Assembly: GCF_009914755.1 (NCBI RefSeq)
Contig: NC_060925.1
Source of the DNA: the human T2T-CHM13v2.0 reference genome, Homo sapiens
Direction: 5' to 3' (one strand)
Length of the DNA stretch: 64,000 nucleotides
In this document: piece by piece, positions 41,563 to 45,389 of the stretch
Numbering within the stretch: the first letter of the stretch is position 1
How the letters are laid out: each line of letters opens with the position of its first letter
Notes under the pieces: generated by a model
Seen by the model: only the letters and a program-made list of their open reading frames with translations
What the model was told of the DNA's origin: nothing
The model's database searches: none
Translations under genes and position numbers: made by a program

Positions 41563-44500
41563 TCAATTCCCACCTATGAGTGAGAACGTGCAGTGTTTGG
41601 TTTTTTGTTCTTGCAATAGTTTACTGAGAATGATGATTTCCAATTTCATCCATGTCCCTACAAAGGACATGAACTCACCATTTTTTATGGCTGCATAGTA
41701 TTCCATGGTGTATATGTGCCACATTTTCTTAATCCAATCTATCATTGTTGGACATTTGGGTTGGTTCCAAGTCTTTGCTATTGTGAATAGTGCCGCAATA
41801 AACATACGTGTGCATGTGTCTTTATAGCAGCATGATTTATAGTCCTTTGGGTATATACCCAGTAATGGGATGGCTGGGTCAAATGGTATTTCTAGTTCTA
41901 CATCCCTGAGGAATCGCCACACTGACTTCCACAATGGTTGAACTAGTTTACAGTCCCACCAGCAGTGTAAAATTGTTCCTGTTTCTCCACATCCTCTCCA
42001 GCACCTGTTGTTTCCTGACTTTTTAATGATTGCCATTCTAACTGGTGTGAGATGTTATCTCATTGTGGTTTTGATTTGCATTTCTCTGATGGCCAGTGAT
42101 GATGAGCATTTTTTCATGTGTTTTTTGGCTGCATGAATGTCTTCTTTTGAGAAGTGTCTGTTCATGTCCTTCGCCCACTTTTTGATGGGGTTGTTTGGTT
42201 TTTTCTTGTAAATTGGTTTGAGTTCACTGTAGATTCTGGATATTAGCCCTTTGTCAGATGAGTAGGTTGCGAAAATTTTCTCCCATTTTGTAGGTTGCTG
42301 GTTCACTCTGATGGTAGTTTCTTTTGCTGTGCAGAAGCTCGTTAGTTTAATTAGATCCCATTTGTCAATTTTGGCTTTTGTTGCCATTGCTTTTGGTGTT
42401 TTAGACATGAAGTCCTTGCCCATGTCTATGTCCTGAATGGTAATGCCTAGGTTTTCTTCTAGGGTTTTTATGGTTTTAGGTCTAACATTTAAGTCTTTAA
42501 TCCATCTTGAATTAATTTTCATATAAGGTATAAGGAAGGGATCCAGTTTCAGCTTTCTACATATGGCTAGCCAGTTTTCCCAGCACCATTTATTAAATAG
42601 GGAATCCTTTCCCCATTGCTTGTTTTTGTCAGGTTTGTCAAAGATCAGATAGTTGTAGATATGCGGCATTATTTCTGAGGGCTCTGTTCTGTTCCATTGA
42701 TCTATGTCTCTGTTTTGGTACCAGTACCATGCTGTTTTGGTTACTGTAGCCTTGTAGTATAGTTTGAAGTCAGGTAGTATGATGCCTCCAGCTTTGTTCT
42801 TTTGGCTTAGGATTGACTTGGTGATGTAGGCTCTATTTTGGTTCCATATGAACTTTAAAGTAGTTTTTTCCAATTCTGTGAAGAAAGTCATTGGTAGCTT
42901 GATAGGGATGGCATTGAATCTATAAATTACCTTGGACAGTATGGCCATTTTTACGATATTGATTCTTCCTACCCATGAGCATGGAATGTTCTTCCATTTC
43001 TTTGTATCCTCTTTTATTTCATTGAGCAGTGGTTTGTAGTTCTTCTTGAAGAGGTCCTTCACATCCCTAGTAAGTTGGATTCTTGGTATTTTATTGTCTT
43101 TGAATCAATTGTGAATGGGAGTTCACTCATGATTTGGCTCTCTGTTTGTCTGTTATTGGTGTATAAGAATGCTTGTGATTTTTGTACATTGATTTTGTAT
43201 CCTGAGACTTTGCTGAAGTTGCTTATCAGCTTAAGGAGATTTTGGGCTGAGACAATGGGGTTTTCTAGATATACAATCATGTTGTCTGCAAACAGGGACA
43301 ATTTGACTTCCTCTTCTCCTAATTGAATACCCTTTATTTCCTTCTCCTGCCTAATTGCCCTGGCCAGAACTTCCAACACTATGTTGAATAGGAGTGGTGA
43401 GAGAGGGCATCCCTGTCTTGTGCCAGTTTTCAAAGGGAATGCTTCCAGTTTTTGCCCATTCAGTATGATATTGGCTGTGGGTTTGTCATAGATAGCTCTT
43501 ATTATTTTGAGATATGTCCCATCAATACCTAATTTATTGAGAGTTTGTAGCATGAAGGGTTGTTGAATTTTGTCAAAGGCCTTTTCTGCATCTATTGAGA
43601 TAATCATGTGGTTTTTGTCTTTGGTTTCTGTTTATATGCTGGATTACCTTGATTGATTTGCGTATATTGAACCAGCCTTGCATCCCAGGGATGAAGCCCA
43701 CTTGATCATGGTGGATAAGCTTTTTGATGTGCTGCTGGATTCGGTTTGCCAGTATTTTATTGAGGATTTTTGCATCAATGTTCATCAAGGATATTGGTCT
43801 AAAATTCTCTTTTTTGGTAGTGTCTCTGCCCGGCTTTGGTATCAGGATGATGCTGGCATCATAAAATGAGTTAGGGAGGATTCTCTCTTTTTCTATTGAT
43901 TGGAATAGTTTCAGAAGGAATGGTACCAGTTCCTCCTTTTACCTCTAGTAGAATTTGGCTGTGAATCCATCTGGTCCTGGACTCTTTTTGGTTGGTAAGC
44001 TATTGATTATTGCCACAATTTCAGATCCTGTTATTGGTCTATTCAGAGATTCAACTTCTTCGTGGTTTAGTCTTGGGAGGGTGTATGTGTCGAGGAATTT
44101 ATCCATTTCTTGTAGATTTTCTAGTTTATTTGTGTAGAGGTGTTTGTAGTATTCTCTGATGGTAGTTTGTATTTCTGTGGGATCAGTGGTGATATCCCCT
44201 TTATCATTTTTTATTGTGTCTATTTGATTCTTCTCTCTTTTTTTCTTTATTAGTCTTGCTAGCAGTCTATCAATTTTGTTGATCCTTTCAAAAAACCAGC
44301 TCCTGGATTCATTAATTTTTTGAAGGGCTTTTTGTGTCTCTATTTCCTTCAGTTCTGCTCTGATTTTAGTTATTTCTTGCCTTCTGCTAGCTTTTGAATG
44401 TGTTTGCTCTTGCTTTTCTAGTTCTTTTAATTGTGATGTTAGGGTGTCAATTTTGGATCTTTCCTGCTTTCTCTTGTGGGCATTTAGTGCTATAAATTTC

Positions 44501-45389
44501 CCTCTACACACTGCTTTGAATGTGTCCCAGAGATTCTGGTATGTTGTGTCTTCGTTCTCATTGGTTTCAAATAACATCTTTATTTCTGCCTTCATTTCGT
44601 TATGTACCCAGTAGTCATTCAGGAGCAGGTTGTTCAGTTTAATGTAGGTGAGCGGTTTTGAGTGAGTTTCTTAATCCTGACTTCTAGTTTGATTGCACTG
44701 TGGTCTGAGAGACAGTTTGTTATAATTTCTGTTCTTTTACATTTGCTGAGGAGTGCTTTACTTCCAACTATGTGGTCAATTTTGGAATCGGTGTGGTGCG
44801 GTGCTGAAAAAAATGTATATTCTGTTGATTTGGGGTGGAGAGTTCTGTAGATGTCTATTAGGTCCGCTTGGTGCAGAACTGAGTTCAATTCCTGGATATC
44901 CTTGTTAACTTTCTGTCTCATTGATCTGTCTAATGTTGACAGTGGGGTGTTAAAGTCTCCCATTATTATTGTGTGGGAGTCTAAGTCTCTTTGTAGGTCA
45001 CTCAGGACTTGCTTTATGAATCTGGGTGCTCCTGTATTGGGTGCATATATATTTAGGATAGTTAGCTCTTCTTGTTGAATTGATCCCTTTACCATTATGT
45101 AATGTCCTTCTTTGTCTCTTTTGATCTTTGTTGGTTTAAAGTCTGTTTTATCAGAGGCTAGGATTGCAACCCCTGCCTTTTTTTGTTTTCCATTTGCTTG
45201 GTAGATCTTCCTCCATCCTTTTATTTTGAGCCTATGTGTGTCTCTGCACGTGAGATGGGTTTCCTGAATACAGCACACTGCTGGGTCTTGACTCTTTATC
45301 CAATTTGCCAGTCTGTGTCTTTTAATTGCAGAATTTAGTCCATTTATATTTAAAGTTAATATTGTTATGTGTGAATTTGATCCTGTCAT
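41563..45389 (-). pseudogene. Disrupted L1 ORF2
   Basis: Split into six ORF fragments by frameshifts (about 44640, 43625, 43080) and stops (about 43945, 42055). Confidence 0.95.

What the first reader, a model, noticed from the sequence alone, without database searches (positions are those of the whole stretch)
44200..45110. Apparently private variants shared by the two neighbouring L1s
Seen: both copies have gaagggCtttt (30063 and 44328; ETQKALQK), taatgTccttc (30841 and 45105) and gctagcAgtc (KIDRLLARL), interleaved with sites where they differ (cattga vs cattaa; gctcct vs gctctt). From memory, L1 consensus has ETQKTLQK, GGC at that Gly and DRPLARL. The third site is a CpG and could be recurrent; the first two are not. 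Inference: repeated short-tract sequence exchange between these two particular paralogues, which would make the neighbour the donor rather than any L1HS.
Basis: partly seen in the sequence, partly recalled or inferred. Interest (0 to 1): 0.7.

Follow-up and report, generated by a model that had tools for sequence, protein, structure and literature searches.

The report
Young L1 patch inside older L1
An old LINE-1 copy inside the human CHRM3 gene carries about 100 bases of young, human-type LINE-1 sequence beside a 284-base deletion, likely copied in during break repair and likely from the young copy 14 kb away, while the three shared variants first flagged occur in too many other copies to prove that exchange by themselves.

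Summary
The three shared alleles are real but not private: 169 of 6346 and 51 of 5558 genome matches carry the two non-CpG alleles, and the third is ordinary CpG decay. The older copy B shares 2 of 17 non-CpG alleles specific to the young copy A (chance 1.3-1.9% per site; p 0.02-0.04 before any correction for selection).

Stronger evidence lies just outside the coordinates. B (L1PA3-type) carries four consecutive L1HS-diagnostic alleles (45329-45406), then a 284-base deletion unique in the genome, then a fifth. This is a young-to-old transfer. The donor cannot be named, because A's own alleles there fall inside the deletion.

A second old copy (G000:C7:148916127) has the same patch, with the same 24-base left border holding a TTTT/AA endonuclease site, and no L1HS neighbour within 34 kb. 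A control site gave 0 such chimeras.

Best reading: repair templated on neighbour A (0.5). Main rival: priming on L1HS RNA at an internal nick (0.25). This is a new case of known conversion between repeats, with a testable hotspot lead resting on two copies.

The parts
27066..33105 (-). Copy A: full-length young L1 (L1HS, pre-Ta type by its ACG 3'UTR triplet; names recalled). Both reading frames open. The hub table places an alternative CHRM3 exon (32656-33122) in its 5'UTR.
   Evidence: 98.2-99.1% identical to 28 copies with the L1HS motif; open stretches of 374 and 1283 codons
41334..47208 (-). Copy B: near full-length older L1 (L1PA3-type, name recalled), same orientation, about 14.3 kb from A site to site; frames broken; about 128 extra bases in the 5'UTR (46313-46447)
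   Evidence: 96% identical to A, 248 differences; older allele at most diagnostic sites; stops in all frames
45305..45416 (.). L1HS-type patch in B, identical to A 31041-31152; L1HS-diagnostic alleles at 45329, 45332, 45347, 45406
   Evidence: each 28 of 28 in L1HS-type copies (the first three fixed by the search motif) and 1-2 of 32 in older copies; older allele at 45304
45320..45325 (+). TTTT/AA, the canonical L1 endonuclease target, inside the 24-base window where the patch begins
   Evidence: 1.2% of 24-base windows of A hold such a nick point, 7.4% for TTTT/A
45416..45419 (.). Junction of a 284-base deletion (A counterpart about 31154-31437: end of ORF1 and part of the spacer), TT microhomology, no poly(A), no duplication
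   Evidence: 1 match in the genome with up to 2 mismatches
45417..45460 (.). 44 bases right of the deletion, identical to A, with one L1HS-type allele at 45454; older allele at 45461
   Evidence: 22 of 26 L1HS-type and 2 of 30 older copies; 494 genome matches. A single marker, so weaker.
44328..44328 (.). A patch from A is limited to 20 bases; from B to A, 20-163 bases.
45105..45105 (.).
44264..44264 (.).
32263..32284 (.). Two older-type alleles (32268, 32282) in A's otherwise L1HS backbone: candidate old-to-young patch; B fits as donor only for a patch of 15-22 bases
   Evidence: 0 of 27 panel L1HS share them; A is the only one of 99 L1HS-motif copies on C1-C3 with this state; 239 genome copies carry it

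Best explanation
The older copy B carries an L1HS-type patch of about 100 bases that ends at a unique 284-base deletion; it was likely copied in during repair of a break that likely began at the TTTT/AA site at 45320, and the template was likely the DNA of neighbour A. Shown: the patch, its borders, the deletion, its microhomology, and the young-to-old direction, since the alleles are younger than B's backbone. Inferred: (1) L1 endonuclease or another agent broke B near 45320-45325; (2) the left 3' end invaded the 96%-identical direct repeat 14 kb away and copied 95-113 bases; (3) synthesis stopped and the end joined at a TT microhomology 284 bases further on, perhaps after the right end had also copied up to 44 bases; (4) there was no crossover, so the 14-kb interval and donor A stayed intact. 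I put that at about 0.45.
For: Four consecutive diagnostic alleles plus one beyond the deletion, with older alleles on both flanks. No difference from A over 113+44 bases against 4.1% elsewhere, P=0.0013 post hoc. None of 37 older loci shows such a patch; 36 have runs of at most 2, and L006 has a run of 4 only at markers shared with L1PA2. Two genome-wide searches gave 8 distinct hits, of which only 2 are old-backbone chimeras, and one of the two lies 14 kb from an L1HS; only 2 of the other 97 L1HS-motif copies on C1-C3 have another within 50 kb. Alu conversion is reported as raised between copies under about 10 kb apart (passages in PMC8230782, PMC6598467). A itself is mosaic at 32268/32282, and B shares 2 of 17 A-specific alleles (p 0.02-0.04).
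Against: No A-specific allele lies in the retained patch: 31224, 31398 and 31434 fall in the deletion, so most L1HS fit as donor equally well. The C7 chimera has the same patch and no L1HS in 20 probes across about 34 kb each side, so a neighbour is not needed. This window was probably picked because it holds a neighbour pair, which weakens the proximity argument. 14 kb is beyond the roughly 10 kb range quoted for Alu. The break site is inferred from one motif noticed after the fact. No ape orthologue and no second assembly was seen.
Confidence: 0.5

Rival explanations
1. RNA-templated patching. ORF2p nicks the old copy at the internal TTTT/AA. The freed 3' end pairs with the same position of an L1HS mRNA instead of the poly(A) tail, and about 100 bases of cDNA are made toward the RNA's 5' end. 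The cDNA is resolved by homology (C7, no loss) or by microhomology joining or a template jump (B, 284-base loss). The neighbour is then incidental.
For: Both chimeras start in the same 24-base window holding TTTT/AA on the strand, and with the polarity, that target-primed reverse transcription needs. They have similar length (at most 136 and about 113 bases). C7 has no neighbour. No chimera had its border in the 335 bases to the left (0 of 5 hits). A control pair of markers gave 0 hits. Only a young, expressed subfamily appears as donor. cDNA-mediated conversion is described for yeast Ty and Tf2 and called open for other elements (PMC6598467).
Against: Only two cases, one of them the discovery case. 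The searches required L1HS markers right of the site, so polarity is built in. DNA-templated repair from a break at the same site predicts the same one-sided tract. Short tracts often have a border that close to a marker. The control differs in site and motif length, and 1 against 0 is not significant. It leaves B's neighbour as a coincidence of about 1-2%.
Confidence: 0.25
2. Ectopic DNA-templated conversion of B from a distant L1HS copy, as is likely or possible for C7.
For: 382 copies carry the motif and the patch fits most of them; C7 shows a distant template works.
Against: It does not explain the neighbour, and older copies, which far outnumber L1HS, should more often be the donors.
Confidence: 0.13
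3. For the reader's three sites only (independent of the patch): recurrent mutation in both copies, with no exchange.
For: Allele frequencies 2.7% and 0.9%, and the third is CpG. Two older copies elsewhere carry all three. 15 of 17 A-specific alleles are not shared, and CpG-decay alleles are shared at 2 of 11. 7 of 1044 random young-old pairs share two or more in 2 kb. The case was selected by eye from many windows.
Against: p 0.02-0.04 for this pair; there is independent evidence of transfer into B nearby and of mosaicism in A.
Confidence: 0.5
4. The patch is a lineage relic or chance: B descends from a source that already had these alleles.
For: Late L1PA2-type copies carry subsets of the markers (L091, L093, L095, L097), and single young alleles occur in B and other L1PA3-type copies.
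Against: Those intermediates also carry the many flanking L1PA2 markers that B and C7 lack. B and C7 have different backbones (95.9% and 92.6% to A). C7 has 0 differences in 135 bases against 7.8% around it, P=2e-5 post hoc.
Confidence: 0.07
5. Assembly or polishing cross-talk between the two copies.
For: Single-base sharing between nearby 96%-identical repeats is what mis-mapped reads would leave; no second assembly was seen.
Against: 248 differences are kept, including ones 7-14 bases from site 1. Polishing would not make a unique 284-base deletion, and C7 has the patch with no neighbour.
Confidence: 0.05

Closest known systems
Non-allelic gene conversion between Alu copies (PMC8230782; Aleshin and Zhi 2010 as cited there and in PMC6598467)
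   Same: Partial, mosaic replacement of diagnostic sites; young elements as preferred donors; raised rate between close neighbours; a criterion of three or more neighbouring diagnostic changes.
   Different: Here the elements are 6-kb L1s 14 kb apart, the patch ends in a deletion, and a second copy repeats the same border.
Non-classical, endonuclease-independent L1 insertion (NCLI; PMC1920257)
   Same: Internal young L1 fragment, no poly(A), no target-site duplication, target deletion, microhomology.
   Different: The NCLI loci deviate from the endonuclease consensus and add sequence at a break. This patch replaces the homologous stretch of an old L1 in register and starts at a canonical TTTT/AA.
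cDNA-mediated conversion of resident Ty and Tf2 copies in yeasts (passage in PMC6598467)
   Same: A resident copy would be overwritten from a reverse-transcribed template.
   Different: Those are LTR elements with free cDNA; for L1 the cDNA would be primed on the nicked old copy itself. Not shown here.
L1-L1 chimeras and recombinant L1 loci (35 of 2267 loci called recombinant in PMC13192797; chimeras of new and resident L1 in cultured cells, Gilbert 2005, recalled)
   Same: One locus holds sequence from two L1 lineages.
   Different: Here an internal patch of about 100 bases with old sequence on both sides, not a single crossover or a 3'-anchored insertion.
The human-specific L1 antisense promoter of CHRM3 (Huh 2009; Kim and Hahn, via PMC3123540 and PMC7913837)
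   Same: Copy A is likely this element: the annotated alternative exon starts in its 5'UTR.
   Different: The passages seen concern promoter use, not exchange with copy B.

Membership tests
Non-allelic gene conversion between TE copies: patch at 45305-45460 | At least three neighbouring diagnostic changes of another subfamily in the acceptor | tested here: met
   4 consecutive plus 1; criterion from PMC8230782
Non-allelic gene conversion between TE copies: patch at 45305-45460 | Acceptor keeps its own alleles on both sides; no crossover or loss of the interval; donor unchanged | tested here: met
   older alleles at 45304 and 45461; A keeps L1HS alleles at 31041-31480; both copies and the interval present
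Non-allelic gene conversion between TE copies: patch at 45305-45460 | Donor identified by copy-specific alleles inside the tract | tested here: inconclusive
   A's three specific alleles lie in the deleted 284 bases
Non-allelic gene conversion between TE copies: patch at 45305-45460 | Outgroup orthologue lacks the patch; seen in two independent assemblies | not testable with these tools
   no relatives held for this genome (header); supplements of PMC13192797 unreadable
   single markers separated by retained differences at 30049, 30070, 30805, 30893
   2 of 17, p 0.020-0.041 uncorrected
Non-classical L1 insertion (NCLI) | No poly(A), no target-site duplication, target deletion, junction microhomology | tested here: met
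   junction anatomy
Non-classical L1 insertion (NCLI) | Site departs from the L1 endonuclease consensus; sequence is added rather than replaced in register | tested here: not met
   TTTT/AA at the border, and the patch is collinear with B; so not filed as NCLI
RNA-templated (ORF2p-primed) conversion | Tract starts at an endonuclease site and runs toward the element's 5' end only | tested here: inconclusive
   true for 2 of 2 chimeras, but the search fixed the polarity
RNA-templated (ORF2p-primed) conversion | Dependence on ORF2p reverse transcriptase and an RNA donor | not testable with these tools
   needs a cell assay

The most novel reading that the evidence does not exclude
Active L1 rewrites its own fossils: ORF2p nicks an internal TTTT/AA near the start of ORF2 in old genomic copies and primes on L1HS RNA at the homologous position, leaving in-register patches of about 100 young bases with no poly(A) and no duplication. 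B and the C7 copy are two germline products of one hotspot.
Probability: 0.22. Interest if true: 0.72.

Novelty: new member of a known kind. Interest (0 to 1): 0.42.

Why it matters
As a single neighbour conversion it is a clean L1 example of a process documented mostly for Alu, and a reminder that locus-specific L1 alleles and divergence ages can be borrowed. If the shared border is a real hotspot, L1 activity would leave a class of germline changes that insertion callers cannot see. It would also make testable a question a review calls open, namely how common cDNA-mediated conversion of resident elements is (PMC6598467). No effect on CHRM3 is indicated: B lies in an intron and is already broken.

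Tried and rejected
Deletion inherited from an already deleted donor: rejected, the junction is unique (1 match). Deletion by splicing: rejected, neither strand gives GT...AG at the junction (sequence). 45454 as a private shared allele: rejected, it is an L1HS-type allele with 494 matches. Low divergence at 29921-30212 as one long tract: rejected, B keeps the L1PA3-type allele at 30049, and 29952/29977 occur in other L1PA3-type copies. Other candidate chimeras: 9 of the 11 other copies are L1HS or late L1PA2 types and L093 is a diverged L1PA2 type; L102, L103 and L130-L132 are L1HS with a back-change at the flanking marker. A second close pair on C3 (13 kb apart) is two ordinary L1HS. B and C7 converting each other: considered unlikely, as any of about 380 copies fits as well. 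Single young alleles in B (A positions 29020, 29977, 31984) were not counted, since single markers are common in the older panel (16 of 37 have one). Word searches in PMC10883270 (conversion, recombination) and PMC4908685 (CHRM3) found nothing. The passages of PMC11702581 and PMC10760644 seen did not describe such patches.

Full report
The locus. The window holds two L1s on the minus strand in direct orientation: A (27066-33105) and B (41334-47208), 96% identical with 248 differences. A is 98.2-99.1% identical to 28 copies that carry an L1HS motif, has both frames open and carries ACG in its 3'UTR. B has about 128 extra bases in the 5'UTR, a 284-base deletion and broken frames. The labels L1HS, pre-Ta, L1PA2, L1PA3 and L1PA4 are recalled and rest on these features and on divergence; no repeat library was run. 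The hub table puts an alternative CHRM3 exon in A's 5'UTR, and two reviews list a human L1 promoter of CHRM3 (passages), so A is likely that element.

The observation. They are not private. Site 1 is in 169 of 6346 genome matches and site 2 in 51 of 5558; these counts are lower bounds by the tool's own warning. Site 3 is CpG decay, in 3 of 29 L1HS-type and 13 of 46 older panel copies. Within L1HS-motif copies on C1-C3, 1 of 97 others has site 1 and none has site 2.

Is the sharing above chance? One search lists 38 positions where A departs from other L1HS. I set aside 3 deleted in B, 3 where A simply has the older majority allele, the pair 32268/32282 (treated below), and 32738/32759, where A equals B against only two L1HS and no older copy covers the site. 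In random young-old pairs, copy-specific non-CpG alleles are shared at 40 of 3112 (1.3%) to 113 of 5992 (1.9%) sites, and 3 of 551 or 7 of 1044 pairs share two or more in 2 kb. The binomial chance of 2 or more of 17 is 0.020-0.041, before allowing for the case having been picked by eye. Outside 29556-32591 the L1HS panel is only 1-2 copies deep. Each site is a lone marker: B keeps its own allele at 30049, 14 bases from site 1, A has its own at 30070, and site 2 is bounded by 30805 and 30893.

The stronger signal. At 40 sites that separate L1HS from older copies, B has the older allele almost everywhere, but the L1HS allele at four consecutive sites (45329, 45332, 45347, 45406) and at 45454 beyond the deletion. 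The first three are fixed in the L1HS panel by the search motif; their rarity in older copies (1-2 of 32) is the informative part. B is identical to A for 113 bases left and 44 right of the deletion against 4.1% divergence elsewhere (P=0.0013, post hoc). Among 37 older loci, 36 have runs of at most two such alleles; L006 has four, at markers shared with L1PA2. These loci were fetched through the site-1 and site-2 searches, so they are unselected for the patch but not a random sample. The junction has a TT microhomology, no poly(A) and no duplication, and is unique in the genome. The direction is young to old, because the alleles postdate B's backbone. The donor cannot be read: A's specific alleles at 31224, 31398 and 31434 lie in the deleted part.

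A second chimera. Searches pairing the L1HS motif with an older marker on the left (5 hits) or right (4 hits) gave 8 distinct loci. Six are young copies with a back-change; two are old backbones, B and G000:C7:148916127. The C7 copy is 92.6% identical to A, yet has no difference over 135 bases (A 31041-31176; P=2e-5, post hoc) and no deletion. Both patches begin between A 31041 and 31064; with a donor carrying T at 31040 the borders could reach left only to 31029 and 31018. That window holds TTTT/AA on the plus strand, the endonuclease target (passage in PMC10760644), found in 1.2% of such windows, or 7.4% for TTTT/A. Twenty 200-base probes at 3.5-kb spacing over about 34 kb each side of the C7 copy found one 96% L1 of older type and no L1HS; an L1HS absent from this assembly is not excluded. 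A control pair of L1HS markers elsewhere gave 0 chimeras. These numbers are small, the site was chosen from B, and copies with mutated flanking markers are missed.

Copy A is mosaic too. It has older alleles at 32268 and 32282, which 0 of 27 panel L1HS share. That state occurs in 239 genome copies, but among 99 L1HS-motif copies on C1-C3 only in A; earlier-branching L1HS such as L067 and L072 already have the younger pair. B fits as donor only for a patch of 15-22 bases; a late L1PA2-type donor or a template switch at insertion fits with fewer constraints.

Mechanism. I commit to DNA-templated repair from neighbour A after a break at or near the endonuclease site, aborted and joined by microhomology (0.5). 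One of only two chimeras lies 14 kb from an L1HS, whereas 2 of the other 97 L1HS-motif copies have another within 50 kb, and a neighbour effect is reported for Alu. Priming on L1HS RNA at the internal nick (0.25) explains the shared border and the neighbourless C7 case. A distant DNA donor (0.13), relic or chance (0.07) and artefact (0.05) follow. The break site, the strand invasion and the donor are inferred; the patch, its borders and the deletion are shown.

Literature. Seen as passages: PMC8230782, PMC6598467, PMC1920257, PMC10760644, PMC11702581, PMC3123540, PMC7913837. PMC13192797: abstract, passages and the recombinant-detection section; its two supplements could not be read and may show whether A and B have these alleles in 94 haplotypes and whether B is among 35 recombinant calls. 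PMC10883270 and PMC4908685: word searches without hits. Aleshin and Zhi 2010 was seen only as cited; Gilbert 2005 and earlier reports of L1 conversion are recalled. Searches (listings only; one search returned 0 papers) showed no title or abstract start on short L1HS patches in older L1s or on this locus; the library lacks most subscription papers, so this does not establish novelty.

Verdict. The hotspot reading has probability about 0.22 and would deserve about 0.72.

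Noticed in passing
G000:C7:148915471-148917200 (L094, L104, L105): L1PA4-type copy with the same L1HS patch as B, same left border window, no deletion, and no L1HS neighbour in probes over about 34 kb each side.
   Followed up: yes
window 32263-32284: Copy A carries two older-type alleles unique among 99 L1HS-motif copies on C1-C3; donor unresolved.
   Followed up: partly
window 32738 and 32759: A equals B against two other L1HS at two sites 21 bases apart, inside a 43-base stretch identical in A and B. 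Either a second old-type patch or ordinary variation within L1HS; panel too thin to tell.
   Followed up: no
window 26698-27064: A 367-base 3' fragment of an older L1 abuts A's poly(A). A's target-site duplication (about 13 bases, with an expanded T run on the left) shows that A inserted at the truncated end of this fragment.
   Followed up: partly
window 32656-33122: Annotated alternative CHRM3 exon starts in A's 5'UTR, in the direction of the L1 antisense promoter; A has both frames open.
   Followed up: partly
L010/L082 (G000:C1:193.07 Mb): The L1HS closest to A among those measured (0.5% non-CpG difference) also has the site-1 allele, so that allele may have been inherited by A from its source.
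   Followed up: partly
G000:C3:26391308 and 26404586 (L133, L134): Two L1HS copies 13 kb apart in the same orientation; a good pair for testing neighbour exchange over their whole length.
   Followed up: partly
window 41290-41350 and 41104-41124: B's tail is followed by extra non-L1 bases and a second T run, and a third T run lies 170 bases further left: possibly a short 3' transduction.
   Followed up: no
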